Below are positions 1 through 37,334 of a stretch of 64,000 nt of DNA, one piece after another. How positions within the stretch are numbered: position 1 is the stretch's first letter; the number at the start of each line of letters is the position of its first letter. A program made the position numbers and the translations under genes. The DNA is from Sphyrna mokarran (lineage: Eukaryota). Location: assembly GCA_024679065.1 (NCBI GenBank), contig JAGIQG010000011.1, forward strand, positions 41,540,001 to 41,604,000, written 5' to 3'. The notes under the pieces are model-generated. The model was given only the letters and a program-made list of their open reading frames with translations, searched no databases and was not told the origin of the DNA.

Positions 1-525
1 ACATGAAAATTTGCATCACGATGCATCACATACTCCAAAATGTACCTAAGAACTTCTTCTATAGATCTGATTATTTTAACACTACTGTATATGGGCCACT
101 GTTTAAAGAGTATCTCTGTAATAAATTCAAATCGTACGTTCTAACGCGGTTGCTCATGGTATTGCTACATCTGATTTGCAATTGCTAAACAAATTATTTT
201 TTTTCCTGAATGTAATGGTTTTGTAAGAGGTGATGGCCTGGTGTACAGTACGCTTGCCCGAATAGCTGTAGCGTGTAAAATTACTGAAGATCTATTTCTA
301 AACAAAGTAAATAATTTGCCCTGCATTAGATAGGACAATTTCTTAGAAAATATTCTTGTTAACGTAAACTTGCTAATTCATACTTTCAAACAACCATAAC
401 ACTAAAATAGTCAAATCAGAATAGTAACAATATCCCAGAGTGGACAAACTGCAGGGTTCCAAGGTCCCCACTAAACCGTCACAGTATCAAAGGTGTCGGA
501 TCACGGTGGAATCCGTATCCCCCGC

Positions 526-2725
526 TCATGAGAAAGTGAGGTTAGTGGTCAGTTCTCGAATTCGGGTTTCTCTGTTCATTTTCTTCAGCTTCATCCTACG
601 ATTTTGAAACCAGATCTTGACTTGCCTGTCGGTCAGATTCACGCTCTTACTTATCTCTAGACGGCGCTCACGAGTCAGATACATATTAAATAAAAACTCT
701 TTCTCCAATTCCAGTGTTTGATATTTTGTATAAGGACACCTCTTCTTTCTTCCGCTCTTTGCTGTGAGCCAGTTGCTTACCGGGGTTTTCAGCTCTTCTA
801 TCAGAAGTAAGAAACGAGAGATGAGATTTTAGCAAATATGTCCCTACGACAACTGAACTTCAAATCAGTTTCAGCCAGAGTAGCTCTACGCAAAATTACC
901 CCTTCAAATTATACACAGACCGCAGCGATACGCTCTTTACATTTTATCAAATCGTCCAACAAAGATACACATAAACTGATGCGATTTAAAGAGAAAATCA
1001 GTGACTAGATCAAGGGAGCTAAAAATATGCTTTAGCAGATTGACAAATAATGTTACACCATATACCATTTATTGTAATGCACATTTTGAGACAGGTTTCT
1101 TGATGAATTATAAAATATATGCCAGGCCGATTTAAGATGCACTGAAAACAGACAATTTGTTAATATTGGATGAGTAGTAGGCAATACCATTACTTGTGAA
1201 TGGAATCTAACGCTACGGGTTGCAATAGGAGTTTCACCAATAGGTCGTTTTTCAACTTCATAGCCTAAATTTACAGATTGTGAAATTCTGACAATATAAA
1301 CGTATGTGGCCATGATAATAATTCCGGAGGTAAATCTTAAGCTATTAAACATACTACCGCTGCCTCTTATCGAGCAGGTTAATTGGAATTTATGTGCTAG
1401 TATGTACTATATGTGCCGGTAGTATTTCACATTCTTCGAATGAAACTTTTATTTCTGGGTAGAGTATATCTTATATGAGTATATCTTATATATCTAACAA
1501 ACTGTTCAAGGGAAAGTTACAATTCTTCTACAGACCAAGCCTTTCTCACTCACCATCTCCAAGACAACAAATGATGCAAATAACGCTTTTATTTCACAAT
1601 ATCCGAGCCTGTGCCGTGCTGCTAAATATATACGCAGTTGCTTTTAATATGCTGCATGTCGTGTATGGCACCAAACGTTTCATATTGTATCTTAGAGCTC
1701 GCCAACGCCAAGATGAAACTATTACTGTTATACTGACATCTGTAAATGATTTGCTAGTCTTTACTACGTCATTAACAATTTCATGGAATTGTTGGCCACA
1801 TTTTCCAACAACTCGTTGTAATAAAAGGAAATTGTCCTTTTATTCAAACTTATGCAGACTTGGCGATCAGGGGCACACAGAACTTGCCAAACATATTACC
1901 ATGGTAAAGTTACGTAGTGGCTATGCAAGTTTTTGCATCCGCTTTACGATGCTGCCATGTTCATATTAAATCTTTTAAATGCTCACCTTTAGTCTCATTG
2001 TCCGATTGTTCCGAGCTGGATTCGGCTTCCTCAGCGGTTGCACTGACCTCCACTAACCTCGGTTTTGGCTCTGGAGTTTCCACATATATTCCCTTAATGG
2101 GCTCCTGTGCGCTTGGCTTCTCGTTTATTTTCCTCTCCATTGAAGGCTGGCTTGATACCTGCAGTTTGCTGATAAGCCCTAGGCTCGACTGCGGCATTAC
2201 ATTGGCGCTAATTTCCCCAGCGTGATTGTAGTCCAGGCTTTTTTCCAATGGATAAGCCTGACAGAGTCTGAAATATCCCGGGATGGGAATCTCAGGACTT
2301 TCAATGGAACAGCTTTCCGAGGCCAACCTGGGATAGGCGGGAATTGCGGTAGGAGTGAGTTTTCCCCTTTTATCAGAATTATACATGCAGCAAGTGTTTT
2401 CTTCCTTTATGCTAGCAGGAAAGGAGCACGTGGGCATCTGTGGAGTAACAGGTTGTTCAATTCGGCATGGTCTCGAAGGGTCAGCCCAGCCATCCACCTG
2501 AGATAAATAAGGATGAACGCTGATGCTCATATTTTGATGGCTAACCTCTCCTCGTTTAGTCATGGTCGGGAGCAGTCCACAGGTCTGCATTCCGTAAGTT
2601 CCCATATCCGTGCTCGATGGCATGTACATGGAGCTGGTTGAATAGAACCCGTCACCCCTACAAGCACTAATCAGGGAATCTACTAAAAACGAGTTAGTGG
2701 CCGGAGAGCTGCTGGGACAGGACAT
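526..2725 (-). CDS. hoxd10: Homeobox protein Hox-D10, 2 exons: complement(join(526..797,1987..2725)), 336 aa
   Basis: N-terminus [23 protein letters not shown] is the group-10 signature. Donor AAAG|GTGAGC at 1987/1986 and acceptor TCTGATAG|AAGAG at 798/797 (phase 1) give ...[93 protein letters not shown]. The D assignment comes from synteny with Evx2/lnpk and the C-terminal tail. Confidence 0.97.
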
Positions 2726-2890
2726 TTTGGAGAGTAATTTGAAGAAGGCAGATGATGTCCTTTGTAAGCTGACATCTCTAACAAAACATTCCCTGTGTAA
2801 TTGTGGATGCCTCTGTACAAACGCATGACTACTGAGCCAATGGAATTTGAAAATGGCCTTGAAGCACTACCTCCCCGCACATCACATGAT
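2726..2890 (-). promoter_or_regulatory. HoxD10 5' leader and proximal promoter (uATGs, CCAAT box, E-box)
   Basis: Minus-strand ATGs at 2789 (ATG TTT TGT TAG) and 2775. GCCAAT at 2836-2841 and TCACATGA at 2882-2889. The TSS cannot be determined from sequence. Confidence 0.55.
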
Positions 2891-5800
2891 CCACAGTCGG
2901 TTGAATTTGAGCTTAACTGTGGACAACAGCGACACCTACAACTGCAATTCCAAAGTGGCGCCCGCTCCAGCTCATCCTGATCCCTATAGAGATGCCGGCT
3001 CAAAGCTTACAGCATATCCATACCACAGACCGTATCATCTTATCCCAGTTATCGTCAGAAAATAATTAGCATTCTGCTTGTAAAACACAAAATTCTGTTT
3101 GTTTGATAAAACACAAAATAAATGAATCGAATAGGAATTAAAGAAAATCACTGCCATTCCTGACCACAGGGAAGTAAAAACGGAGTTATTGAGGGAAAAT
3201 GTCGGCAAAATGAAATGAGTGTAGTGCAGGTTTATGGTCTGAATGTCTTTATAGTTTCAAGGAGTCCGGAGCAGCTGGGATATTTCATTGTGTACATTCT
3301 ACACATTATGCCTATTAATCTGCATAACTTGCTGGATTATGCATTTTATTTTGCTATAAGCCAAACATTTTGTAAAATCAACGAATGGCATGAAAATATT
3401 GCAGACTCATCAACATTCATTTGATACTTTCGTGCTGTTATTGTGTGGATGTACACTCTCTTTAACTGCAAGTATGCCAAAGTATTTTAATGCATAATAA
3501 AACCAATCTTTGTGAGTAAAATTGAACCGCCATAAGAGTGTTCAAATTAGAATAATTGTTGGCTCCCTCCCACTTTGTCCTTTCCATTACTGTAGTTGGA
3601 GTATAAACATACTGGTGTTGATAACACACACTACGATAATGTCGTTTTATGCGAATATTTGCACGGATACCCTCCGCGGTTCAGACCGTGTGTGAGAAAA
3701 AGACGCATTTTGCAATTCTTGCCATTATTTTGTGTTTCATTTTCATTTAATAACTATCGTTCGAGTTCAAAGTGGATTACCCTATCCAAAAATTCCACTT
3801 TTAACTTTGGAATTCTTACACATCTCCCTGCTGCAGGTGGGAGGCTTCGTTGTTGATCATCAATAGAACCACTCCACAAAATAGGCCGGAAATGCATCCG
3901 CACTCCATAGCCGATAAACAAGGGAAAAGACACAGAGCTAGTCTGTCTGTTTTCCACAGCAAAGCCCGCGCCGCTTCTTCACGGGATTCAGATGGGTTGG
4001 TGGATTTTTTTTGTGATGCCTCCATTCGCAGGCAATCTATGGAAGTTTCTACATGGAGAAAATGTGCCACTTAACAGCACTTGCCCATGTCCGATCACAG
4101 GGCGAACCCTCGAGGGTTCAACAAAATCCAAAGGACGACAGGCATCAGCGATGGAGGAGCAAAGTGACATTCACACAAAGGCATCGAGATTTTCCACTTC
4201 GCAAGACGGGGACAGTGTCAGGGTCAAGGCTGCCATGGTGTCCTCATTTTTTTATTTATTTGGAAATGTAATGATCATCTTCAGAGTGTTTTCGGATTGT
4301 GTGAATTTTAGTATTGTACTAAATGTCTAAAATTCTACAAATATTGAAAATATCGAATCATGAGAGCAGCTATAAATATTTGCGTGTAAATTATTAAGAA
4401 ATACAATTCTTTTCGCAGATAACTTGTTTATTATTATGTTTATTTTCGCATCTCTGTTTCTGATTTGATAGACTTTCTGGTCCAAATCTTTACAGTCTGC
4501 TCCAAGGCGTATCTGCCTTTTAATATTTGCATTTGATTCGTGCTTATAGTGATTCGAATCCAGAACATTACTTCAATGCTCTATAGCCTATCTCTGCCAG
4601 TCCGGTAAGAATGTGTTAGTCAGGTTTATATTTCTATAAAGTGTATCATAATCCTGTTCTTAACATCCAACCCCGATTCAGCAAAGGGCTTACAAAAGGC
4701 GCTGGAATTTGTTTATTAAGCTATGTCTTTTTGATGTGAAGTCACCTCTCCAAATCTTAAAACGTTCTGAAAGACGAGCAATATGACATGGCAAATAATG
4801 CACCCAATTGAGAACATCATACATTATTGATAAAATTCAAATTAATTTATTCGGTGTCTTGTCTAAATTAAAAATGGGAATAGATGTGCTTTAATGTAAA
4901 ACTAGTCTTCCAGGCAAGGGCAAAACTAACAGTTCAAAAACAAAAGATTGCTTTACTTGGGCACTTGGAAAATCATGGACGTATTTACGTGCAACATGAG
5001 TGAATATGTGCAAAATATAGAAATAAGATTGATGCCTCCTGACTTCTTTATTATTTCCTCCGTCAAATTTCCACAACAGCCGAAAAGCCCAATGCTTACA
5101 CCGCCTAACTCTGAGCGCAATTAATATCCTAGTAAAATAAAATACAAATCGCCACCGCTGTTTTACTAGTGACACTGGATACTATTCATTAAGCACACTA
5201 GGTAGCACGACTATATGTGGAAGTATATCTGGAATAATACGATACTTCAAGAATTTTTCCAAGCAACATACCGACCTCAGTGGTTTGTTTATAAGAAACA
5301 GTGAATTGTTGAACGGGAGCCAACAATATACTGCCAGCCTACAACGCTTCGCCATATTATAATCAATATTCAAATCCATGGCAAACAAAGCCAAAACGAC
5401 GATGACTTTTCTTGCGAGCGATTAGAAGTAAAGAAGCTAGCGGCTGTGACTTCGGTAGTAGGGCGAGATAAAAACCAATGCCGCTCTGTTTTTCAGACCA
5501 CAGATACTTGCAGCCTTGAACGAGAGAATTCTCTGCGACGTGAGGCCTGCACAGTACAAAACTCCTATTTATGTACAAATTGCTGTCCCAAAGTTAAATA
5601 ATTCTCAAAAGACGAAATGCCTCGATGTTGGAATAGGCAATGCTTAGCACAAACGTGTTTTTATTAAGAAGAATTTGTTTTTCACTCAACATGAGACAAT
5701 TCGTTGCTCAGTAGCCGTGACTTACGCCGCCATTTATTAGTCACAGTCAATGCGGTAGGATAAAGAAAACAGCATTAGTTACCGGAATATTGCAAAGGAA

Positions 5801-8800
5801 AACATTACCGCAGTGTACTGCAGTTTTTTTACACTTATGCATATATTTATTGGGTATAAGTTGCTATGTAGAAAATTTGTTACATTTAAAAAGCTACTTT
5901 AATATTTCTACCTACATTTATTACTTACTTACGAACTAGCATAGTGTTGATTGTATCGAGATGTTTATTAACAACACAATGATAGAGGGTTATCATATTA
6001 AGTTCACACTGTACCAATCGCATGCCAAGTAAACAAAACAATATAATTGCACGAAGCGGTCCTCCATGATGTATCATAAATGTTCCTTTCAGTGTACTCA
6101 AATAAAATTATAAGTCTGTAAACCTGTATCATAAGACCCCTAGTATGCCAAAAATACCCTCATAAAATATTACGACTGCAGACACACGAGAATTAACAGC
6201 TATGAAATCTTTGAACTATAAAGTGTCCTGGTATGCAGTGGGGAAGATTGCAATATCAAACACAGTTATCATGAGAGTACTCTCAACTCACGCAGAGCCT
6301 AGTTTAAGTAAAGGCAAGGTAATATTAATAGCAACTAGAAAGTGAACTGACTGATTCGTCTCCTAACGGTGCTTTAATGTTTAATAACCTAGTTATATGC
6401 TGTTTATGGGAGAAATGTTACACACAATCCTCCTTAAATTAGTTCTAATGATGGAGATTAATTAAAACCTCGTAATGCATTAAAGCGCCAACGTCGAATG
6501 TGATTTGCTGGAAGGATTTTATATCAGACAAGCTTCATTAATATTAGATTTAAACAGGAACATGAAGCAATAGTGTTGCATTTACATCGATTTGCAATGG
6601 AACAAGGAGGAACATTTCCGTTCCGTACACATGTACAAACATCACCAACAATCGATTGTCAAAACGAGACAGAATCTCGGAAGAAGTACCCTTGCCTCAA
6701 AAAAGGTGGAACAATTTTAAATCACTATAGTCACTACGAATGTTTGGATGGAATTGCTTATTCCTTTGTTTCTCCTGCAGTGTTGACCAAACAGATGGCT
6801 CCATGCTTTGATAAAGGCTCACATTTCTCCCTTTACACTTCCCACCGGCCTAAACTGGCATGGTCTTGTGACCATGAAAGCGTCAGCCACTTCTACCTTC
6901 ACTTTCACCTTGAATTTTTCTGACCGTTTTGACACGCTCAGAACTCGAAATTAAAGGAGTAAACACGAAGCGTGTGCCACTAATTTCACCATCTTGTTTG
7001 CAGTCCATCAGACAAATGTAGAAAAGATTAAATGTTCCATAAACGTCCGGTTAAAGTGCACGCGAAGCTTCCCGTTAGGCTAATTTTGTTTGCCGCCACA
7101 GTTGCCCATAGCAAAACGTTGGCTCTATTGTTAGTGCCTGTAGATACTTCGGAAATATGTGTGGTCGCTGGGTATTTGCAGTTAAATTGTGACCGTAAGC
7201 CCAATGATAATGTACAGGGCTTTTATTATACCTGATTACAAAACGATCAGCAACAGAGTTCAACATAATTTCACTCCTTGTCACATTAAACAAGTTTTGG
7301 TGGTATTTGCTGTCAGTAAATGTTTGTCAATAAACAATTGCCCCAGCTGAATATCAGCCTTTCCATATTTTAAATTATGCATTTCATAATGCTGTATTAT
7401 CATCTTATAAACAAGGAGACAGGAAAAATGTTTCCCTCCAAACTATTTTAAACTAAAATGATAAAAATTGAGCAAAATAAAAGTTCCTTACACAACACTC
7501 CACTAAATTGACAGAACCGAATGGAAGGTAATTGAAAATTATGAGCCAGCCAGCTTTGCTGCGAGAAAGAGAAAAACGCTCGGGCACTTTAACTCGTGTT
7601 CTAAAATCTTCATCAGCACAGTCAGAAAACTTAAAACACTGCCCCCCCATCCATTTAATACTCGAGCCATTAATGAGATTGGAGCGGATATTAGTGCCAA
7701 TTACAGCAATAGACCACTTTCACAATGTAAAATTATCTTGCATTTATCTTGCGTTTATTCCGTTTTACAGTAAGAAATTAAAGGATGTCTCTTCTTATAC
7801 GTTTAAATATTTCAAATTGCTCTTACTCTCGCAAAAGAGAGAGAAAAGTCTGCACGTTAAGTCGGTCCAGCGGGCTGTCTCGCTGATTTCATTTAAATGG
7901 CTCGCCGAATATGACCATCAAATATTCCTCGTTTCCACACTATGAGAGAGTGGGGTAGTCATTGATTTTCTTCGCCGAAGTCAATACTCCGGTTTTCAGC
8001 ATTCCCTTTTCACTTTTGCAAACGAGGGGAGGAATCCAAAACGCAACAGCAGTGTGAACGGCTTTCCTTTGTCCAGTAAGAGCAGAAACGAATACTGCAG
8101 TTAAACATGTCATTATCGAGGCGAATTGTATAGCCGGAAGTATTATTTGGCTGTCCAATACTATTCATTTCATAATCTTGTTAAGTTTGTATGGATTGCG
8201 GGGACACCTCATGGGGAAAACGTTATTAAGAAAGAGTTGTTTTAGATATTGTGCTGCCATGTAAGCCGCTACTGCTTCGCCAGGATGTGAACAGAACTCC
8301 TTAGGTCATTTCTCAACAGCGGCTGTTTGTTTTAACAATTTCCATCCTTTATTACATTGTTTCGCATAGTTTTCTTTTCAAATTCGCGGTAATGTGTTCC
8401 CTCAGTTTGCTCCATACTTTCAGAATGTTTTTTGGGGCTGTTACAAAAAATAGACCGGACCTGATTTGATCTTCGTATGTTAAAAAGAAACCTTTGTTTC
8501 GACCCCAATACTTTACAACTTCGTTCAATCTACACCCAACAAATCCGATCAACAAGTTTAAGACAATATATCGAGATAATCGAACTGTCCAACTCATGAA
8601 ATTGGAAGGTAGCTTTTACTCATTCTGTACTCATTACGCCGAAAATGAAACGCCTTAATTTTTAAAGAGTGCTAAAAACCGAATGAACCTGCAACTACAT
8701 TGAGCTGGCTTGTATTTAATTCCACACTTCAGCAATAATGTTCCAGATAAATGGCAGGAATAAGGAGAATTTTATCGTTCGGAATACTTATACTATTTTG

Positions 8801-9483
8801 GATTTTTTCATATTCATCTCTGAAATATATTATCATAGCATTGCAAGCTGTCGCTTAGTGCTACAATGCGCCGCCGTGTGGCTATTTGCAGAATTAACTA
8901 TCTCGGCAATGACTATCACTGTAAACTAGTCTCCCTGTTTTGACACTTTTTAATGAGCCTAATCAAATTATATATGTCATGGTCATTTAAGTAAGATATG
9001 CAAACAGTAAAGTCATACTTAGATCAGTATTGTATATTATAAGAATGCAGTGAATGTCCAGGTTTACATCGGAAATTCTATTGAGTCGTAAATTACGTTT
9101 TCTCTCATTTCCATGGAAACCGACATGCTCGTGGGCGATTGGTATAGTATTTGGACGCACGATGAACATTTTTGACTCGTTCGGTTTGCAAGAGAATAAG
9201 CTATAAGGAGATATAGTGCTCCTATCAGCTCAGCATGGGAGAACAAAGAAGCCTTCGTACTTATTAATGCAAAAATACTTCGGGTGTATTACTCAATGTA
9301 ACTTTTAGAAACGTACACACATTCAGTTAAAATAGAGATATGTTAAGGAAATAGCGTTTTCAGATTGCTTGTGGCCTTCAGCACACGCACTTTAACAACA
9401 AGTTATAGTTGTTGAAGTTTTTGTCTTAAGGAGGGAAGCTGCAAGAACAATCCAACAGCCACCAGGCGCCTATGCCTTCAAAA

Positions 9484-9526
9484 AGGTTAAAGGTGATGAC
9501 CTTGACATTATAGAAGTTCAAAGACA
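9484..9526. promoter_or_regulatory. Nuclear-receptor half-site cluster between HoxD11 and HoxD10
   Basis: AGGTTA-A-AGGTGA-TGACCT-TGACAT...AGTTCA-AAGACA; contains an exact TGACCTTGA (reverse TCAAGGTCA) at 9497-9505. Confidence 0.45.
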
Positions 9527-11117
9527 ACATTATAAGAATTCTCTTTTCAACATATACCCGAGCATGCTCACGAGGAGATGCGACGTTGTCAGTATCACCC
9601 TGGTCTTCATTAGGTTTAACAAATTTGATTGATGTAACTTATGTAAGATGTAGATTTTTTTCAAATGGTAAACTTTGTCAGCTGAAACGTCCTTGTGTTC
9701 GTATTCCTGTTAAAAATCTGCTTACTTTGATTTGTTTCGATTCTTTTGTTTGGTATGTGGTGCAGGAGCCTTCCTTAGTGACTAGAAGGTGTAATAAGTC
9801 GCCATTAGGCTGGTTAGAGCAGTGAACTTTACGATGTTGTCTAGACAGTTCAAGGTTTTGTAAACAGCAATGCTATGTCATGCGGCACGGAAACTAGGCA
9901 ATTCTTTTTCTTTCCTCGAAAAAAAATTAAACGTTTTGAGGACTCTTATTTACTATGTCACAGGGACACGGATTAGTTTCAAGTTATCATATGTTATTTA
10001 TACATGTAAGTAATTCCTTCTGTAAGAATTTCGTTTAATTTTGATTATACGCTGCCATTGCCCCCTTTCTCACCATGAAATGGAAAAAATATGTCAATTA
10101 ATTTCCAGATGTAAATATGTTTCCTCCAATTTTTTTTTCAAATTGCAATTAACTATCATGTTTATCGGCGAACAGCCAGGTCAAATTTCGGCTTTTCGTT
10201 TTTAAACAGAAACACTCGTGAGGACGCATTATACATGAGCCAGGCAGTAATCTGTAATATAAACAAAAAAAAAGGAACTGGAAGTATTCAGTCGATGAAA
10301 CACCATCTGTTATACTTCAGATTTCCAGTATCCGCATTACTTTGTACTTTGTGTAGTAAATAGCTATGTTTTGGGAGATTAACGATATTGGATCTTCCGA
10401 ATGAATTGGTGCCCTTAATCTGGTCTGCTTAGTATACTCAAATTCATTTAAAAAAGTTTATTTATAAGATTTCTTCGAAGACTTGTTTTCATTTGAGACA
10501 GAACACATACTAACACATGCATTTATCATGAAATGTCAACTAGTTTGTAATCTTTAAACAGAATTGTTAACATTGCAACAGGTTTAGACATTTCTAGCTA
10601 CGATATGTTAGAGTTAATGAATGAAATACATTGGAAAAACGTAAAATAATAAATATGCATTTCTTCTTTTCATGGGAATACATACACGTTCAACAAGAAT
10701 GGTTAGTTTGGCTATACAATGACTAAAACACAAATAGAAAATACTATATTATTTGATTGACCTATCGCTGTGAACGAAAGACTGCTCCATTCCAGCCCCC
10801 AATTACCCCGGTTTATTGTTAAAAATGAGCACGCTGTTTTTTTTATGTCGCGAATCAAACCTCTTCCGTTAGAATCGAATAACACAAATACTGAGGTAAG
10901 GATGTTCCCTAATTTACATTTCGGCCATGATTCCCGCACAACCGTGTCACCTTAAATTCGATTCTACGTCGATCGCATTAAGGGCCGTCTGCTTTCCAAA
11001 GAAGAACAACAAAACTATCCCTTCATACTTGCAAGTCACTCCATCTGTAAATAAATATCGACTAAGGCAATGGAGAGTTGGTCGGAGAGAATCCACCAGA
11101 GTTAAGATGTATCATAG

Positions 11118-12508
11118 TCACAGTAAAGGGTTGCCAGTAAAAAAGTGAAGGCGGTCTCTGCTAAGTTTCTTTTCTTTCATTCTTCGATTCTGGAACCAAA
11201 TTTTCACTTGTCGATCGGTGAGGTTTAACATTCTCGATAACTGCAAGCGCTTCTCTTTGTTTATGTAAACATTGAAGAAAAATTCTCGTTCAAGTTCCCG
11301 GATTTGATATTTGGTGTAAGGACATCTTTTCTTTCTGCATCGCAGAGCGGCTGATGGAAACACAATAAAACGTAAGGTTACAAAGTATCAAATAGCAACT
11401 GACGTGTTCTTAATTCCTTCTACATAAACTCGACAGCAAATGTTGTAAATAATGTTCGGCTTGCCCAATATATCCTGATAGGACTATTTACTAACTGATG
11501 ATTTTTTTAAAAAAAAATGAAAAAGCTTAAATTGGGTTTTCTTTTATGAAGCATTATTTTCCTTACACTCGCATTGAAATCAACAATCACAGGGAAAACT
11601 ATCATAATTAAAACTTTGCCTTGTTACCCTAGAGGAAACGCCTTGGCAATCAATAGAAAACAGAAAAAAACCCTCCGGTGAAATTGCAATGACTATTGAA
11701 ATCATTATATAAAGTGAAAATCGACTATTCGTGATTTTACATATTCAAAAAGCCCACCTAAACCGATTTCCCGTCGTAAACAACCTTTACAACTTTAAAA
11801 CAGATCTTATAGGGTATATAAAATCCTTCGTCTGCTTATAAAATTTCACATAAAATCTGTGAGGCAAAATGTGTTGGCCCTGTATTCTAACGCCGGGTTA
11901 CTAATTCACCTACTGGATAGGCTGCTTTTGTCGGCCACACCATTACCGGAGAACTCCACCGTGGTCTTTTCGGTCGCAGTTTCTTTTCCCTGCCGGGAAG
12001 AAACTTTCTCAGGTGCTGAGATACTCTGGCATGCCGACACAGACTTTTCGGGCAACTGTTCATAGTTAGCGGAGTCAGAAATCCCATAAGCCGTCTCAAA
12101 GAACTGATCGAAACCTTGAGGGAGGATTCCATTCCTGCCAACAGCAGTGTAGAAATTGCAAGATGGATTTGAACTTCCACGCTGGCTGTATACGGAATCG
12201 CTTTTAAACAGCATTCCCGCCCTGCTCGGTGGTTGCATGTAGTCTCTATGCATGATTTCTTCTGCCGTGCAATAAGGAGCATAGCTGCTCCTGTAATGCC
12301 ACTTAGCCGGACGCTCTAAAGCGTAATCTCGGAACGCCACTTCACGGACAGGTTGAACCTGGGTTAAATTGGAGGAATAAGGAAATGTCATTTGGCAGGA
12401 GGTGCTCTGCGGTAAAAATGTGGAGAAATCTGGGGCTGAAACATAGTACGTGCAGCTGGGCAGATACATACTGGAGCCGCAACTACCCAGGTCTTCAAAC
12501 TCTGTCAT
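11118..12508 (-). CDS. hoxd11: Homeobox protein Hox-D11, 2 exons: complement(join(11118..11350,11914..12508)), 275 aa (an in-frame upstream ATG at 12562 could add 18 aa)
   Basis: Group-11 motifs [24 protein letters not shown] and [18 protein letters not shown]. Donor TCCA|GTAGGT at 11914/11913 and acceptor TTTCCATCAG|CCGCT at 11351/11350 (phase 1). Homeodomain [57 protein letters not shown], ending FFTGNPLL*. Confidence 0.97.
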
Positions 12509-12624
12509 ATTTTGCTTTCGAAGTTGCGAGGCCGAATTATCAGGATTGATGATGTTAAACATGCTCCATCTATTCTACCCTAAAAGCGTATGAACAGGGC
12601 CGGCGGAGAAAAAAATTGGAAACG

Positions 12625-12680
12625 CAAGTTGACGTGCAATTCATCTTGATTGATTCTAAGGCTAAACGAGTCATGTGATC
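12625..12680 (-). promoter_or_regulatory. HoxD11 proximal promoter elements
   Basis: TGACGTG near 12630, PBX-type TGATTGAT at 12647-12654 and E-box GTCATGTGA at 12670-12678, all 120-170 nt upstream of the ATG. Confidence 0.45.
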
Positions 12681-15600
12681 CAATGTAGAAATTACCATAG
12701 ATCAGTTTTGGTCATTAAGATCCATCCTTTGGAACTCGAAGGTAATACCGTCGAAATTAGCCTATCGCCTTCCAGGCGGTGCTAGGTAGCCGCGCTCCCT
12801 TCCCAGTGCCAATGATTTGCCCTCTGACTAAGTATAAAGCAAACACAGTAACAAATAATTTAATTGACATACCGCACTCTGTCACAGATACCTTTCTATA
12901 TTTGGAAACTCCAAAAACATCGGCGCTGTTTCATTAACTGTTGAGGTCGTGTCCATAATATAAAACTATATTCTACCAAATAGGCAGAATTCTTACTATC
13001 TTAAAATATAAAACTTTATTTTTCTACATGCGCTAATACGAGTAACAAGGGGGAGCTCCAAGTCATTTCGTGGTGGGTGAACCGAATCACAAGATCCTGC
13101 CTAAACTCTACTTCAAGGTCGGATTGACGTGTTAACAGAGTTTTATTATAAATCTCAGAGTAAGGAAATTAGATGGAATATGTCTATTCAAGGACGATAA
13201 CGACATTATTCACTTTTATTTCGAAGCTGGTGGCTTACAACCTTTCGATTCGATTTCTAAGTTCGGATTTGACATATGCCATAGCCAAGAATGTATACAT
13301 GATTAAAGCCATTCCCTACCGCTGAGCCTCATTATGTTACCGCCAAAAAAGATGTACTTCATTAATTGTCTAGATATTATTGTTTACATTACGCAAATTA
13401 ACCATCCAATGATCGCGCGAGTTTAACACTATCTTCGACATAAATCGTAAATATGCAAATTAAACAAGGTTTGGAGTTGGGTTCCTCTAGAACTGCATCG
13501 CTATTTTGACATTAACGTTAAAATATGGTTGCACTGCAATATTTAAATAATGACCATAATATCAGGCTTGCTCGAGGCGTACATTTCTCTTTGCAATTTC
13601 AAAAGTTAATATCCATGATTTGCATAAATTGGAAACGACATGTGGAGACTCTGTTGGGCAACTGGAGTGAGTTCAGAAATCTGAGAATACAAACGAGTGC
13701 ATCGCCGAGTTATTCCGTAATCTCTCCCATCGGCAGAAGCCAATATGTGGAGTCTAATTAAATATCTGCAGGAAAGCGAAATTCTTGTTTGAATAGCTTT
13801 CGAATCTGCAAATATGGATCATCTTCGATCTTTTTAAGCGGAGGCCAATCAAGTATAAGATATATAAGCTGATAACTTCCATGTAACAGCTTGGAGGGTG
13901 TGGGAGGAGGCAGCTCCACGGAGAAAAGAAATCATATTTAATTATGGAAGGAAATCTACTCATGTTGCAATTTGCGCTTATGCACTCATTAAATATTGCA
14001 TGTCATTATCTCGTTTTCCATTTATCCCTCAAGACCGAGCAGGAGGTAGCGCTCTGATCAATATTTGTTTACTTTGGTCGGATTGCAATAGACAAATAAT
14101 ATTGTCCGTATATTTCAATTAGCCAAAGATTATGTGTAATTAATTCGAGCAACCTGAGGATAGTCCCATTTCTCCGAAATGAAACATAATAAAATGTAAA
14201 TGCCATTGATTCCATAAGTAATAATTGTTCGGTTGTAAAGTAAGTTTCCTAAAAATGGATTTAAATTAAAGGTTTGAATCACACCAGTGTGTTAAGTTTC
14301 GATTTGTTCATTCCATTCTCGTCAAACTTGCACAGGCACTTCTAAAATGTAACATCCGACTGTTGTTCGTATAAAGTGTGTGACCTGGTATCGTTTTAAT
14401 TAATAGGAACTAAAACGCAGTATTGTCTTTGTGTATTTATTGTAAAATAATAAAGATAATTAACCTCAAATTAAATCAAAATTTGAAATTTCCTAACGCA
14501 GCACGGCTGACTGATCTAGTATGTCGACCGTGATCACCGATACAGCAGAATGAGCCACATTGAAATGTAAATAGCATGTTGAGCATTGCCCCGGCACAAT
14601 CGTTTGAAATAAGGAACCTCTCACTTATAAATATTGATTCATTTTTAATTTTCTTCCTTTGGAATGTAATGCATCCTTTATGTAGTTAATAAAAGCATCA
14701 TCGTTGCGTATTCTATTAATAGATTACGGAACTCGCTTAAGCATGTCCTGGATATAATATGGCTTTCCTTTCTGCGTATAATGGTTTTAAGGCTCAAACG
14801 TACTGGCCATGGGCTCGATGTCATTTCCAAGCAATTTCCAAGCATCAACCGTTATGAAGATACGCACTAATTCAGTCACATAGCATTAGTCCTTGTGTTA
14901 GAAGACCCAGTTCAATACTATGGCAATGGCTGTGAATGGAAAGGGAATTAAAAGTGCCCTTTGTTCTCATCTCGTGTTCAGATGACCAATTCGGCCCGTA
15001 TTGAATGTTAAATGCGGACAAATACCTAACAACTTGTTTAACATCGACGGGGGGAGGGGGAGGGAAGCAAAGGCGGTTCTGGTATACCAAGTAAAGAGTT
15101 TTATAGGATATAAGTTAGGATCATTATTCTCTTACACGCATGGAGCAAAAAGGCGACGCACAGAGAAAGTTTGTCTGGCGTATTTCTTTCTTACTCAATT
15201 CTTCAAATCGACGATTTGTTCTTTCACGTTGCCGTCCTCGGCAAAATATTAGCGTCTTCGTCGCTTTTTTTTTGAATAGAGCGCGGCGTTAAGTATTTCG
15301 AATGTGGAAAAAAAAAGCCCTCATTAGTCAAGCGAAGTCCACGATCAGTAGGTATGTTAGACTTGTGCAATGCAAAAAGAGACACTAACTTGACCTTAAC
15401 TTTGTTATGGCGCCCCCAGTATCTGGAGAACATGTACAGACACTGTCTGGCAGCTCGACCCATAAAAGTGAGATGAAAAAGAGATTCCGAGCCATTTCGA
15501 CCTAATGTCGGACAAATTTCCAAAGCTCTGGATTATACTGCGGCAAATATGATAACCTTGATACATTTTGGTGCTGGAGTAATTTACTGTACACAATTAT

Positions 15601-19194: not shown

Positions 19195-20791
19195 CTAAAA
19201 AAGTGAGAGTGTTTGTTCGCGCATTACAAGCCTTTTCTTTTTCATGCGTCGGTTTTGAAACCAGATTTTGACTTGTTGGTCGCTCAGATTCAGTCTATCG
19301 GACAACTCTTTCCTCTTCTGTCGGTTGATAAACTCGTTGGCGAGAAATTCATTCTCAAGTTCAGCTATTTGCTGCTTGGTGTACGGCTTGCGCTTCCTTC
19401 TTGACCTCACTTGGGTTGGACACCAGGGCAGACCTGCTGATAGGGATAGAGAAGAAAAAAAGGCTGAAGCAATCGAAACATTTCACCACCCACCACCCTC
19501 CCTCCCCTCCACACACACCCCTTCACCCCCCAATTCTAGAATAATTGACATTTTCAGCACTGTTTGTTCTTCCAGACAGTAGCATTTTTAACGTTGTTGG
19601 ATTTATATTGTTGCGGTTTTTTGAAATGATGTTGAAACTTCAATCAAAAGATATAGCATTCTCTATTTGTGGCACTTGGTCTTGATGATTTAGAAAAAAA
19701 ACATCACTAGTAAATTATTATTTTGTCTATCAAGCTGGTCAAATGACACAAATGCATTATTTCAATATTCAAGTATCTTAATATTCTATAGTTACTGCAG
19801 CAGAAACTCGCCAATTCTAACAAAGGAATCATCCTGAAAAATTGGCTTCATAATAAAATGGCGACAAATTCAGTAAAGATTTCTTCACCATTTAAATAAA
19901 TGTTAGTTAGAACCCAAACTGCAATGTTCAACCTTGTAATTTTAATTCAATTTCAAATATTTTGACCTATCATTCATGTGCCGCTGCCAAGCCTTCTGTT
20001 TCATTGTGTTTATTATCACGTCCTAATCATTTTTTGTTTGTAATTGCGAGAATCACTTCCCCGCTTTTTCTGAATACCGCAAGGTTTTCAGGTTCGTTGT
20101 TTAATATTCAGTCCATGAAATTCAGGTAAGGGTGACAGGTAGTACTTTTGGGAAGTCGGGATACTGCAGTTTTCAGAGGAGGATCGTTTGAATATTGCAC
20201 TGATACTATACCGTCGGAGGATCTGTTGCACACTGGCGTTACTGGTGACTGTAATGACACACTGAGGCTCACACTTTGCTTGATGCCATCATTTACAGTG
20301 GGAGAGTTGGAATTCAATTCAAAGCCTTGGTTATGTAATGACGAGCCATGCAGAGATGTTTCCACATTTGGGTATTCGTACTTGGCAGGATTGATGTTGA
20401 CTGAAGAGGGGATGCTGCTATCACTGGGATAAGACTGATTGTGTCTGCATCTCTCCTCCAGTTTCCGGCTGCTGTCTTGGAAGTAGTATTTGTTAGGCTC
20501 TTCGCCGGCCGCTGTCTTGTCTGATCCATGCTTATTGATGCTGATGGAGACTGAGTTGTTGAGGTAGGATTGAGAGTAGCCGCTAAAGGCGCGGCTCTGC
20601 GGCGGCGATGCGCATGGACTCGAAGTCCACGGGAGCGAGCACACCTCCCTGCGGGTGTAGGAGAGTGCTGGCGACAGAGTTGCCAGTTGAGTCCCATTCG
20701 GACGCAGGTTGGCGAAATAGAATGGCTCCGGACTGGTAAAATTTAACAGGGAGCCGACATAGCCTGAATTTAGCAGATTGTGATCGCACAT
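19195..20791 (-). CDS. hoxd12: Homeobox protein Hox-D12, 2 exons: complement(join(19195..19433,20212..20791)), 272 aa
   Basis: N-terminus [33 protein letters not shown] (group 12). Donor GACG|GTATAG at 20212/20211 and acceptor TATCAGCAG|GTCTG at 19434/19433 give [69 protein letters not shown]. Confidence 0.96.
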
Positions 20792-20859
20792 TTCCGAGGA
20801 ACGCGATCAGACCCTCTCTGTCCCCTATTTAGCTTCCAGACAGAGATAAACGAAAGACG

Positions 20860-20892
20860 CTCGCTGATTGGCTCCTTAGTGGTCACAAGACA
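20860..20892 (-). promoter_or_regulatory. HoxD12 proximal promoter, NF-Y CCAAT box
   Basis: Minus-strand AGCCAATCAGC (plus GCTGATTGGCT, 20863-20873), about 75 nt upstream of the ATG. Confidence 0.5.
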
Positions 20893-22502
20893 AGCGGAAA
20901 CAGCTTTTTTTTCTGGAACCGCCTCCATCCCACTTCAACTCACATCTGAAATGCCCAAGTACACGTCCGTGTGCACCTTCATCACACTCAATGCCTCTTT
21001 AGTCCGACGCAAACTCGCTGAAGTCAACAGGATGCATGCACAATTCAGAAAAACATCTTCCAATTTAATAAATTGGATACGCTGATTAAACAGATCTCTG
21101 AGTATTTCACATGCCCTAAACGGATTAACGCTTTATTGACCCCATGACTTTTTAAAAATAAGTAAGCTTTGAATATCCGAAATGCTCAAACGTTCTCGTG
21201 AATCTATCAAATCAATATCAGTAATTCCTGTAAATTTCATAGCTAAAATTGGTAGTATGGTTTATCCGATCGTGCATTATTTTAACTGGTATCATCCATC
21301 TGCGTGGAATAAAAATAAAGCGTTCATTTAAAATACCACAGATGTTTTATATTTTAACCCGTTATTTTTAGCTATTTATTAATGGGTAGGTAATATCAAT
21401 CGCTGTGCGAAGGTCATCTGTGTTTAAACAAGCCATGTTTTTATCGTCTGAGTTTGATTATTTTTGTTTAAAATAAACAACGAATATGACGGTAAGCAAT
21501 GACAATGTTTCAAAACTAAACACATGAACATTAGTGTGAATTATCTATAGGTTTTAGAAAATGTATTCTGCGCCTAACTAGTTAAGGTATATTTTACCAT
21601 TCGAATAATCAACTAACGCACCAAATATAGCGCGATTAAACTCATTCGACTTTTCCAAGTGAACAAAGCTCCACATCAGCATAGCGTCCAATGTGATATA
21701 AACAATGGGCATCTTTCTTAATTCTCGCCGTTGAATTCAATTACCTAAGACAGTTTTGATTTTTAGAAAAATAGCATGTTGATTATATTAAAATGTGCAT
21801 TCATTTATTAGGCGGAAAGGAAAATGGGCCGGTTCTTGGTGCGGCCACAATTGAGTTGAGTAATATTGCACAGTCCTTTTGTGTTTGACAATGTGCGGCT
21901 TCAAGTAAAAATGTTGAAGTTAAATTCTGCTGTGAGTCTGTGTTTACAATACTCGCGTTTCGATAATATCCAGTAAATTGGCGGTGGCCTCCCTTAACAT
22001 TAGACTGCAACATTTTATATTTCCCAAGAACGCTGCCCGTTATGCGAGGACGGCGAAGTCTCATTTTATCCTTAGAAAATTAAAACGTTGATCTCAGATT
22101 GTGGAGTAAATGCCAACATTTGCAACGTTAGTGTCCAAGCCAAAATAACGCACTTCTCTTTTGCATCGGCTCCTCTTTTCGAATTATTAGAAACTTATTT
22201 TAGGCCGATTTCTTTTCTTAATGCATCACATTTCTCAACAATGAAAACATTAAGGCGGCTGGTACTGATTTAACAATTTAACAATAACAATAATATCAAA
22301 ATATATCGATAGCAGACTAAATTAAATAAAGAAATAAATATATTGCGTCTACCTTGTTGAACTATGTAACTAATTCTGGGGACAAATATGACTTTAGATA
22401 ATTCAATCTGAGACGCCGTTCCTAAGATAACAAAACAATTTTATTTATAACATTGTATCAACTACAGAAATGTAATATTTTAAATATTTTTATTTCCACG
22501 AC

Positions 22503-26336: not shown

Positions 26337-27611
26337 TCAAGGTATATTTTCTTTGACTTTGGAAACCACTTTCTTTTCTTTGACTCTCCTGTTCTGAAAC
26401 CAGATGGTAACTTGTCTCTCGGTCAGGTTGGTGGCGGTTGATATCCTGCGTCGTTTTTCCTTGGTTATGAATTTGTTTGTGGCGTACTCTCGCTCCAGTT
26501 CTTTGAGCTGGGTTTTCGTATAAGGGACCCTTTTTTTCCTCCCTCGCCTGTAAATGTTTATATCAGTCTGATTGTGCATCATGTCTCCTGAGAGGGAAAA
26601 TGCAAGTTAGAAGAACATTTAACTTCAAAGCAGTAGCACTTCAAAGAATGTTATATAAAAAAAATTCTTTCCCACATTTTTGAGTTTTGAAACGTACTTT
26701 AAGTAACTCAGAGATATTTATTCATATGGCCAATGCCATATTCCAGTGTATTAATTCACGCGTATGGTTATTCTGTGTTCCAGGTGTTACTAGTCCGAAA
26801 TACATTAATTATTAAAAGCTAGCGAATTCCTGATAATATTAAAAACCAAACCAATTGGAATTATGTTATTTCCTTTGAATTTAAAATAATTGTAACTTTT
26901 CAGTGAAAATTATTTTATAATACCTGAGAGAGGAGATTTCCAAAAATGTGGAGTCTGTGTCTGATCTTTAGGACAATACACTTGACCGTTCCAGCCATTA
27001 GCAAATGACCAGGGCTGATAGCCCTCCATGGAAATTAAGGCTTCATGCCTTGGCTCTCCGTGGCCGCTTATTGTGGGGACTACTGGAACGTCCAAATAAC
27101 CAGAGACCCGTTGGTATGGATTGGGGTAACTCTGATAAAATGCAAATTCTTTTGCCCTGGATGATACCTCGTCAGTGGGGACAGGGGTATTAGTCAAACC
27201 AGAAACGTCCATGTATTTGTCCACTGGATAACCGGCTAGAGATGCATGCGCACCAGATTTCAGTCCAGTTTGCTGAATGCCAACATTACGACAACTGTAA
27301 TAGCTGCTTCCAAAATGATAGCCGTAACTGATCGCTGGGTTTGGAGGGCTTGTCGGAGCTGGGCATGGGCTGCATTGCTTAGCAGATTCAGAAATGACAG
27401 AGTGCGTTCGATCTCCGACTGAGTAAGCGGGACCCGAAGATAACGAGTTGTGATGAGCTCCAAATGCAGAGGGAGAGAGAAAATTCCTGCATTGATTTGA
27501 AGGGACGTTCCCTCCCAGTCCTTCCATGTCCGAGTTAGCTGTGTTGTTTCTGTTGTGTAGGTACCTGATTGTATCAGTCCTCCAAGGGGCTGAAAGAAAA
27601 GAAGCTGTCAT
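26337..27611 (-). CDS. hoxd13: Homeobox protein Hox-D13, 2 exons: complement(join(26337..26587,26924..27611)), 312 aa (alternative start at 27527, MEGLGG)
   Basis: Group-13 motifs [52 protein letters not shown] and NGWNGQVYC. Donor TCAG|GTATTA at 26924/26923 and acceptor CCCTCTCAG|GAGAC at 26588/26587. Homeodomain [58 protein letters not shown]. Confidence 0.97.
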
Positions 27612-35629: not shown

Positions 35630-37334
35630 TCACAGTCCGGGATAACCTGACTTTACCGACTGTTGTACACGGAGAAGCTTTTTCTCTTTCTGCCTCTGAT
35701 TCTGAAACCATATTTTGACCTGAAAAACAAACAGATCATTTGAAAATGGCAGGTGGTTAACAATAACCCCTTTAAAATTGCAGTGAAGAAGCTGTGCCCA
35801 CCTGTTGATCAGGAAGGGAGACGGTGTTGCGAGAACAGGTGCGTCCTGTAGAAATTGGAAGGGGATTCTCTTACCTGCCTTTCTGTTAATCCTAACTTGA
35901 ACGATATGTTTAATCGAACTTCAGGGGTGAGGAATCGATTATTTTCAAAAGCCATTTCCAGTTCAGCGATTTGCTGTTTGCTGTAAGGAATTCGTTTTTT
36001 CCTTTGTCTATGTATCGGGTTTTGTGATGTGGACCATTGGGATGCATATCCCAAAGCTGGGGAAACAACAATCCATCAACGTGTTGAATTAGCATGAACA
36101 CAATAGTTGACATTCACAGCAGCGTATATGTCTTTACCTACTTATACCGTTTTCCTGTCTACATGAACTCCATGTTAATAAAGTATACAACAGTATCATT
36201 TACCCTCGCTTATTTTAATTGATGTTCGTTAATTTAGCGAAGTTTATTTGTTAGTCAAATAAAGTAACATTGTCCAGTGACGAGAATTAATATCACATAT
36301 AATTACTTATATACTTTTGGTTCTCATCCCTCTTCTTGTTTATTTGAATGAATAATTCACACTTTACCAAAGTAAATCGTTTTCAATTGATCCTTTTGCT
36401 GCATTTACATATTTTATATATCTAAAAAGCACATTTTTGCTTTTGATCTCTGAAACATTTCATTGAGAAATAAAGACTGAGCAATTGAATTAAGTCGGAC
36501 TAACATAAACTAACCACTCCCTTTGATATATTTCTCGTGTTGAAGACATATCCTGAGATTTATAACCGCCCTAAGGGAAAACTGACTATTTTAGATCTCC
36601 TAAAGTTTAATGGGCATATTTTTTCCAAAATGGTATTTGAAGATGAAATCCCCAGTTCACAGTAAGTGCAACAGTCGAAAGTAAAATACAGAGCACCCAG
36701 TGTTACTAAAAGACAGGGAAGACAATATTTTAAAAAATATATCGCAATTTTTAACTTATCCAACATGGAAAGACGGGTATACAATGTACGAGAATGTGCT
36801 GTCAGACTGACCTAAATGCCTTGGGACACCGGCTATTGCCGGGTTGAGCGCTCCTCCTGTAAACGGTGCCTCGCAGTACTGAGAATGGCTGAAGGCAGCC
36901 ATGCCCTGATTGTTGGCATCTGGCTGGTCAGGTGCAGTCCGGGGATATTCTAAAGGCCAATGTTGGTAAATTGGGCAGTTTGTAGGGTATTCACTTCTGG
37001 TGCACAGGTTGTGCCGGTAGCTAGTAAACGAAGGTATATGATTGTCATTTCGAAACTGGTTTGTTGGGAATTGTTCTGCCGCAGGTGACATAGCAACTAT
37101 CTCCCGATCTGCGCTTCCGAACGATCCATAAGTCGAAATATCTTCGGAGTACAAACTTTGGCACTTTCCACTTGAAGTGGTTTTCAAAGGCGGTGGGACT
37201 ATAGCCGAAGAATTGCCACAATTAGTGGGGAGTACTGGTGCCATTTCCGTAGGCCGCACTTCATCTTGCAGTATTCCTGTTTTATCGCTAGATGTCTCTA
37301 ACGTCAGTTTGTATTGCAGGGAAGTCGCATCCAT
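35630..37334 (-). CDS. hoxd14: Homeobox protein Hox-D14, 3 exons: complement(join(35630..35719,35875..36056,36812..37334)), 264 aa
   Basis: Lies between HoxD13 and Evx2 in Hox orientation. Intron 1: donor TTAG|GTCAGT (36812/36811), acceptor TTTCCCCAG|CTTTG (36057/36056). Intron 2: donor CAG|GTAAGA (35875/35874), acceptor TTTTTCAG|GTCAAA (35720/35719). Homeodomain [44 protein letters not shown]^VKIWFQNQRQKEKKLL has the Hox14 WFQNQR signature and an intron after residue 44. No stops or frameshifts. Confidence 0.95.

What the first reader, a model, noticed from the sequence alone, without database searches (positions are those of the whole stretch)
2683..2789. HoxD10 overlapping uORF looks like the HOXA10 N-terminal extension shifted by one base
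Seen: a minus-strand ATG at 2775 opens [30 protein letters not shown] (stop ends at 2683). It starts 50 nt before the HoxD10 ATG, so it is out of frame and overlaps the start. A 3-codon uORF (ATG TTT TGT TAG, 2789-2778) precedes it. Recalled: human HOXA10 begins MSARKGYLLPSPNYPTT-MSC, a 17-codon (51-nt) in-frame extension very similar to the first 17 residues here. Inference: one ancestral upstream AUG became an N-terminal extension in one paralogue and an inhibitory overlapping uORF in the other through a 1-nt indel, giving a translational control switch between paralogues.
Basis: partly seen in the sequence, partly recalled or inferred. Interest (0 to 1): 0.72.

Follow-up and report, generated by a model that had tools for sequence, protein, structure and literature searches.

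The report
Ancient Hox10 upstream start, shifting frame
This shark's HoxD10 gene has an extra, out-of-frame start codon 50 bases before the real one whose first codons match the 17-residue front extension of HoxA10 in bony vertebrates; it likely dampens HoxD10 translation a little, and its frame appears to have shifted several times in vertebrate evolution rather than once.

Summary
Observation confirmed: minus-strand ATG 2775 opens a 30-codon frame overlapping the HoxD10 start (2725, 50 nt on); a 3-codon uORF precedes it. Not an assembly error: two contigs of related species bridge it without an indel, one spliced to exon 2 and reaching 2892. Homology to the HoxA10 extension is real (10 of 17 residues; score 33.9 against 1.8 for the next of 1029 ATG 17-mers). 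But the picture is not one clean switch. HoxD10 is in frame in an electric ray, a gecko, two soles and two rockfishes, with spacers of 48-65 nt overall. Hagfish and one lamprey Hox10 have MSA-headed extensions; 14 of 14 full-length cartilaginous-fish HoxA10 records lack one. HoxA10 extension changes are mostly non-conservative, pointing to constraint on nucleotides and frame, not peptide. Translation, start site and repression are untested in shark.

The parts
2683..2775 (-). Overlapping upstream ORF, 30 codons; ATG 50 nt before the HoxD10 start; context G at -3, T at +4; stop TAG at 2685-2683 inside the FLVD codons
2756..2775 (-). Most conserved 20 nt of the leader (head of the uORF); homologous to the start of the HoxA10 extension
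   Evidence: 19 of 20 identical to teleost locus L001, against 10 of 22 for the next stretch and 94 of 126 in the CDS
2778..2789 (-). 3-codon uORF (MFC*), ending 2 nt before the second upstream ATG
   Evidence: its ATG is absent from teleost L001
2683..2826 (-). Further upstream ATG (2826) in the same frame as 2775, 47 codons; may lie in the promoter rather than the mRNA
   Evidence: ATG also at -101 in L001
2837..2888 (-). Promoter-like block: CATGTG E-box-type word 2888-2883, GCCATTTT 2857-2850 (YY1-like, label recalled), ATTGG 2841-2837 (reverse CCAAT box)
   Evidence: positions; GCCATTTT and ATTGG kept in L001; function inferred by analogy with Hoxa9 (PMC9456764)
1987..2725 (-). HoxD10 coding exon 1; main ATG 2725 with A at -3, T at +4
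   Evidence: splice donor at 1986 shown by the loose end of contig X5 record 9
526..797 (-). HoxD10 coding exon 2 (homeobox); total CDS 336 aa
   Evidence: the loose end equals the start of this exon

Best explanation
The ATG at 2775 is the HoxD10 copy of an old upstream start motif shared with HoxA10 and probably with cyclostome Hox10; in this shark it lies out of frame and likely acts as a weak, leaky overlapping uORF that diverts a fraction of ribosomes from HoxD10. Shown: position, frame, homology, presence in a spliced contig of a relative. Inferred: selection holds the first ~20 nt and, in bony-vertebrate HoxA10, the 51-nt in-frame spacing, but not the peptide; indels in the pyrimidine-rich spacer have moved the frame repeatedly, so the same AUG gives an extended isoform where it is in frame and a repressor where it is not. 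Also inferred: the AUG sits close to the cap and lacks G at +4, so most ribosomes would scan past it, and ribosomes that read the 3-codon uORF stop 2 nt before it and would skip it. The expected effect is modest (the tested Hoxa uORFs gave 1.2- to 2.5-fold).
For: Frame and overlap. Homology. Leader in a spliced contig reaching 2892 with no difference from 2511 to 2892. Mammalian HoxD10 read-through ORFs align in register with the shark leader, 22-24 of 33 residues in the main frame, implying the same 50-nt spacing in 4 of 4 such records. Mouse Hoxd10 has a conserved uORF inside its CAGE-defined leader, scored as translated from aggregate ribosome profiling (PMC8892498 sections 6 and 12). HoxA10 spacer fixed: 112 of 123 proteins exactly 17 aa, one 16 aa, one embedded in a longer ORF, 9 none. 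Non-conservative variant types 25 of 37 in the extension against 9 of 30 in the adjacent core, Fisher p 0.003. HoxD10 spacers 48, 50, 51, 52, 53, 57, 60, 65 nt; in-frame forms switch frame mid-leader (Narcine after about residue 9, Gekko after about residue 5-6). MSAW-headed extensions in hagfish Hox10IV (16 aa) and Lethenteron (31 aa). A milkfish HoxA10-like protein has Val where the downstream Met stands, so the upstream AUG is its only annotated start (P0286).
Against: No shark CAGE, ribosome profiling or reporter data. By analogy with Hoxa9 (CAAT box about 60 nt before the start site) the main start site could fall near 2775-2790, leaving the AUG too close to the cap to be used, or outside some mRNAs. 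Contigs cannot show a start. Which Hoxd10 uORF PMC8892498 scored is unknown (SI PDF unreadable). HoxD10 tolerates the in-frame state in several lineages, so repression cannot be essential. Most frame data are read from predicted proteins, not DNA: only the window, L001 and the laid contigs are DNA; annotation can omit a real extension (Megalops and Amia congeners differ). Mammalian uATG is implied by the read-through residues, not seen as DNA. Cyclostome likeness rests on three residues (MSA) and position; two Lampetra records lack the extension.
Confidence: 0.55

Rival explanations
1. The conserved 20 nt are a DNA-level core-promoter or transcription-factor element just after the start site (it contains TGTCA, the reverse of a TALE-type TGACA site, label recalled); the ATG is incidental, is hardly translated, and its frame drifts or is frozen by chance.
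For: Conservation is nucleotide-like: 19 of 20 nt with a teleost, non-conservative residue changes in HoxA10, frame labile in HoxD10. It adjoins E-box, GCCATTTT and reverse CCAAT words; conserved Hox leader blocks have proved to be promoters (PMC9456764).
Against: HoxA10 keeps exactly 51 nt across bony vertebrates, in both teleost copies, while HoxD10 spacers vary, which a pure DNA motif does not explain. Mouse Hoxd10 uORF was scored as translated. P0286 lacks the downstream Met.
Confidence: 0.25
2. One reading: one indel after cluster duplication fixed an extension in HoxA10 and an inhibitory uORF in HoxD10, and selection has kept this as a dosage switch between paralogues; exceptions are late and minor.
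For: 15 of 19 against 5 of 98 in frame; 50 nt in shark and inferred in mammals; 0 of 40 N-complete HoxC10 proteins extended, and Hoxc10 also has a published uORF.
Against: In-frame HoxD10 in Narcine, Gekko kuhli, Solea (2 species), Sebastes (2 species) and two unnamed teleost records; third frame in L001; out-of-frame HoxA10b-like P0341; no extension in 14 of 14 full-length cartilaginous-fish HoxA10.
Confidence: 0.18
3. Assembly error: a base is missing before the main ATG and the extension is really in frame.
For: The ATG follows a short A run; contigs of run X23 break at 2715-2731 and do not bridge the site.
Against: Contigs of runs X19 and X5 (related species, different studies) bridge the site with no indel; 7 of 8 cartilaginous-fish HoxD10 clusters start at the main Met; mammalian records give the same register.
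Confidence: 0.01

Closest known systems
Conserved inhibitory Hox uORFs (Ivanov et al. 2022, PMC8892498; read: abstract, sections 5, 6, 7, 12, part 1 of 2 of the Discussion, term hits in 4 spreadsheets; SI Appendix PDF not readable)
   Same: [quoted passage not shown]
   Different: The paper's main text never names Hoxa10 (0 hits), does not test Hoxd10, does not take it beyond tetrapods and does not relate it to an N-terminal extension. Here it is in a shark, overlaps the CDS and has an in-frame counterpart in a paralogue.
HoxA10 17-residue N-terminal extension of bony vertebrates (annotated start of 410-aa human HOXA10; PMC9550837, passages only)
   Same: Homologous AUG and first 15 codons; same weak context (mouse primer shows G at -3, T at +4).
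   Different: 51 nt, in frame, nearly invariant in length; here 50 nt, out of frame, ends at a stop after 30 codons.
ATF4-type leader: short uORF1 plus overlapping uORF2 (recalled, no call)
   Same: 3-codon uORF followed by an out-of-frame uORF overlapping the main start.
   Different: Only 2 nt separate uORF1 from uORF2, so delayed re-initiation cannot choose between uORF2 and the main AUG as in ATF4; uORF1 is missing in teleost L001.
Hoxa promoter blocks once read as leader elements (Akirtava et al. 2022, PMC9456764; passages and supplement hits seen)
   Same: E-box and CAAT-type words just upstream of a short Hox leader.
   Different: That work did not examine Hoxd10 (0 hits).

Membership tests
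Overlapping uORF | AUG upstream, out of frame, stop after the main AUG | tested here: met
Conserved inhibitory Hox uORF (PMC8892498) | AUG lies inside the mRNA leader as mapped by CAGE | tested here: inconclusive
   Spliced contig of a relative reaches 2892, but contigs cannot show the start site; no shark CAGE
Conserved inhibitory Hox uORF (PMC8892498) | Suboptimal context (no purine at -3 and/or no G at +4) | tested here: met
   G at -3, T at +4; definition
Conserved inhibitory Hox uORF (PMC8892498) | Evolutionary conservation of the uORF | tested here: inconclusive
   AUG kept in shark relatives and teleost L001 and implied in mammals; frame and stop differ in teleosts, Narcine, Gekko
Conserved inhibitory Hox uORF (PMC8892498) | Translated, and represses the main ORF in an eIF1/eIF5-sensitive way | not testable with these tools
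   No ribosome profiling or reporter; the paper tested only Hoxa1, a9, a11
HoxA10-type N-terminal extension | Homology to the MSARKG-type head | tested here: met
HoxA10-type N-terminal extension | In frame with the main ORF | tested here: not met
   50 nt; no indel in bridging contigs
Conserved-peptide uORF | Peptide, especially its C-terminus, kept across species | tested here: not met
   Teleost L001 uORF is 22 codons and ends in another frame; in-frame forms change frame mid-leader
ATF4-type delayed re-initiation leader | Spacer between uORF1 and uORF2 long enough for re-initiation at uORF2 | tested here: not met
   2 nt; requirement recalled
Structured RNA leader element | Stable or known fold | tested here: not met
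   z 0.62, 144 of 200 shuffles fold as well; 0 Rfam matches in 1-13000

The most novel reading that the evidence does not exclude
A single upstream AUG older than the jawed-vertebrate Hox cluster duplications works as a frame-tunable dial on Hox10 dosage: out of frame it represses (HoxD10, probably HoxC10 and cartilaginous-fish HoxA10), in frame it is neutralised into an extended isoform (bony-vertebrate HoxA10, and independently HoxD10 of an electric ray, soles, rockfishes and a gecko), so small leader indels would retune posterior Hox protein output lineage by lineage.
Probability: 0.22. Interest if true: 0.68.

Novelty: new variant of a known kind. Interest (0 to 1): 0.43.

Why it matters
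Conserved Hox uORFs are known, and Hoxd10 is on the published list. What this adds is a link not found in my searches: the annotated first 17 residues of HOXA10 and the HoxD10 uORF are the same ancestral element read in different frames, and it reaches back to sharks and probably cyclostomes. That questions whether the HOXA10 N-terminus is a functional peptide or a tolerated by-product, and it offers natural in-frame and out-of-frame variants of one leader for a simple reporter test of how uORFs and N-terminal extensions interconvert. The likely effect size is small.

Tried and rejected
No whole genome is held for the window, so this shark's own HoxA10 and HoxB10 leaders could not be read. Run search listed no holder on record as RNA ('no RNA holder listed'); 4 of 23 listed runs were laid, all contigs; X1 did not cover the site and X23 did not bridge it. 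The metagenome scan gave 1 confirmed locus of 50 pattern matches, a teleost-like HoxD10, and no HoxA10 or HoxC10 DNA. The 9-nt head motif alone is not rare: 3 matches in the window, 1.08 expected, 12 of 100 shuffles reach 3. The sigma-70 scan does not apply to a vertebrate promoter and was ignored. No stable fold, no Rfam family. PMC2746220 (passages) has nothing on the Hoxa10 leader and no readable supplement; PMC7139118 (passages) and bioRxiv 10.64898/2026.03.29.707813 (passages; supplements closed) were not relevant. Paper searches answered; none listed a paper relating the Hoxd10 uORF to the HOXA10 extension; subscription papers and the SI Appendix of PMC8892498 (Tables S1, S2) were not seen and may do so. 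Earlier-findings look-ups: nothing by sequence; by words only unrelated uORF notes. One unnamed teleost HoxC10-like protein with a 10-residue extension unlike the MSA head (P0307; gene label is my reading) was outside the 62 counted.

Full report
Setting. The window holds the posterior part of a shark HoxD cluster on the minus strand. The ORF at 2725 is HoxD10: exon 1 is 95% identical to the Scyliorhinus canicula record and 74-91% to other cartilaginous fishes. Exon 1 runs 2725-1987 and exon 2 797-526, giving 336 aa.

Observation. ATG 2775 opens [30 protein letters not shown], stop ending at 2683, 50 nt before the main ATG and out of frame. The 3-codon uORF is at 2789-2778 and ends 2 nt before ATG 2775. 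A third ATG at 2826 is in frame with 2775. Both 2775 (G at -3, T at +4) and the main ATG (A at -3, T at +4) lack G at +4.

Assembly error. Four of 23 listed runs were laid; all are contigs of related species. One contig of X19 spans the stretch, and one of X5 covers 1987-2892 with a loose end equal to the start of exon 2, so it is spliced. The only indels listed are at 3012, 3014 and 3053; the X5 contig has no difference between 2511 and 2892. X23 breaks at 2715-2731 and X1 does not cover the site. The 50-nt spacing is therefore real, and some spliced RNA includes both upstream ATGs; the main start site is not shown.

Homology to HoxA10. Of 123 HoxA10 proteins examined (from the listed 120 of 138 hits, the listed 120 of 219, and one cluster member), 112 begin with exactly 17 residues before the core Met, one with 16, one has the 17 inside a longer ORF and 9 have none. 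The set spans lungfish, coelacanth, bichir, sturgeon, gar, both teleost copies, amphibians, reptiles and birds. The query contained the extension, which favours such hits, whose query did not, 15 of 19 HoxA10 and 5 of 98 scorable HoxD10 proteins were extended (3 of 101 lacked an N-terminus). The shark uORF head equals the consensus at 10 of 17 positions and scores 33.9 against 1.8 for the next of 1029 ATG 17-mers in the window (pairwise E 2e-4). A primer for residue 1 of 410-aa human HOXA10 confirms the recalled start for its first 8-9 codons (PMC9550837, passages), and a mouse primer shows the same weak context 16 nt from the cloned leader end (PMC9456764 supplement).

The frame has moved more than once. 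Among 138 HoxD10 records, 116 start at the main Met, 6 lack the N-terminus, 8 read through the leader in the main frame and 8 carry the upstream AUG in frame. The four mammal-type read-throughs match the shark leader in register (22-24 of 33 residues) and imply 50 nt; the four teleost-type ones imply 53, 53, 53 and 65 nt. These offsets are inferred from residues, not DNA. The in-frame records are Narcine bancroftii (48 nt), Gekko kuhli (51 nt; the record carries an UNVERIFIED_CONTAM flag), Solea senegalensis and S. solea (51), Sebastes fasciatus and S. umbrosus (60) and two unnamed teleost-type ORFs (51, 57). Narcine follows the uORF frame for about 9 residues and then the main frame, Gekko switches after about 5-6, so the indels differ. 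The one other DNA locus, L001, has the AUG at 52 nt, in the third frame, giving a 22-codon overlapping uORF, and lacks the 3-codon uORF. One unnamed HoxA10b-like record reads the head in a shifted frame (P0341). Fourteen of 14 full-length cartilaginous-fish HoxA10 records (15 of 25 cluster members listed, one partial) have no extension; this is only suggestive, because annotation can omit it (Megalops and Amia congeners differ), although Narcine HoxD10 was annotated with its extension. Hagfish Hox10IV has a 16-residue and Lethenteron reissneri a 31-residue extension beginning MSAW, while two Lampetra records have none; the likeness there is three residues and position. None of 40 N-complete HoxC10 proteins among 62 examined is extended. 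The ancestral frame cannot be fixed from these data.

What is conserved. Against L001, the first 20 nt of the uORF are 19 of 20 identical, the next 22 only 10 of 22, the CDS 94 of 126 (one pair only). In the HoxA10 extension 25 of 37 variant types are non-conservative against 9 of 30 in the adjacent core (p 0.003; variant types, not tree events). So the constraint looks like nucleotides plus, in bony-vertebrate HoxA10, length and frame; it does not look like a peptide. No stable fold or Rfam family explains it. Upstream lie CATGTG (2888), GCCATTTT (2857) and ATTGG (2841). In Hoxa9 a CAAT box lies about 60 nt before the start site (PMC9456764), which by analogy puts the HoxD10 start near 2775-2790 and makes ATG 2826 promoter sequence and ATG 2775 cap-proximal. 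This is inference.

Mechanism. Most likely (0.55) the AUG is a weak, leaky start. Out of frame it sends some ribosomes into a 30-codon dead end past the main AUG, lowering HoxD10 modestly and in a way sensitive to start-codon stringency, as shown for Hoxa1, Hoxa11 and weakly Hoxa9 (1.2- to 2.5-fold). In frame, as in bony-vertebrate HoxA10, it costs nothing and gives a longer isoform; a milkfish HoxA10-like record has Val at the downstream Met (P0286), which fits real use of the upstream AUG. Ribosomes that read the 3-codon uORF would stop too close to 2775 to restart there and could restart at 2725, shielding the gene (inferred from general re-initiation behaviour, recalled). Rivals: a DNA promoter element with an incidental ATG (0.25); one selected indel switch (0.18); assembly error (0.01).

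What is known. PMC8892498 lists Hoxd10 and Hoxc10 among 13 Hox mRNAs with conserved uORFs in CAGE-defined mouse leaders, conserved from mammals to tetrapods, with translation checked on aggregate ribosome profiling. Its main text does not name Hoxa10. Its SI Appendix, which says which uORF was scored, could not be read. Ten answered searches listed no paper tying this uORF to the HOXA10 extension or to sharks; the library lacks most subscription papers.

Verdict. A real and old feature. The uORF class and the Hoxd10 case are known; the shared origin with the HoxA10 N-terminus, the depth to sharks and probably cyclostomes, and the repeated frame changes appear undescribed. New variant of a known kind; interest 0.43.

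Noticed in passing
window 12508-12725 (-): The next Hox gene (HoxD11 by order and recalled N-terminus, not searched) has six upstream ATGs within 165 nt of an in-frame ATG at 12562 that adds 18 residues before MTEF at 12508; PMC8892498 also lists a Hoxd11 uORF.
   Followed up: no
window 20773-20928 (-): Before the HoxD12-like start (20791; label recalled) an out-of-frame ATG at 20928 opens 52 codons that overlap the start.
   Followed up: no
window 26910-27611 (-): The HoxD13-like exon 1 ORF (label recalled) has an in-frame ATG at 27611 adding 28 residues before MEGL.
   Followed up: no
window 36756-37334 (-) and 41567-44206 (+): ORFs that by order look like HoxD14 exon 1 and Evx2 exons, the latter with long alanine runs; labels recalled, not searched.
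   Followed up: no
window 2511-2984: No substitution or indel listed here in contigs of related sharks, while flanks differ by several percent (13 rows of the table were not shown): promoter, leader and first 70 codons form one highly conserved block.
   Followed up: partly
window 2685-2680 (-); L001 377-383: The uORF stop comes from the Leu-Val codons TTA GTx of the FLVD motif in both shark and teleost; in shark a second TAG follows at once.
   Followed up: no
P0286 (Chanos chanos HoxA10-like): The downstream core Met is replaced by Val, leaving the upstream AUG as the only annotated start.
   Followed up: partly
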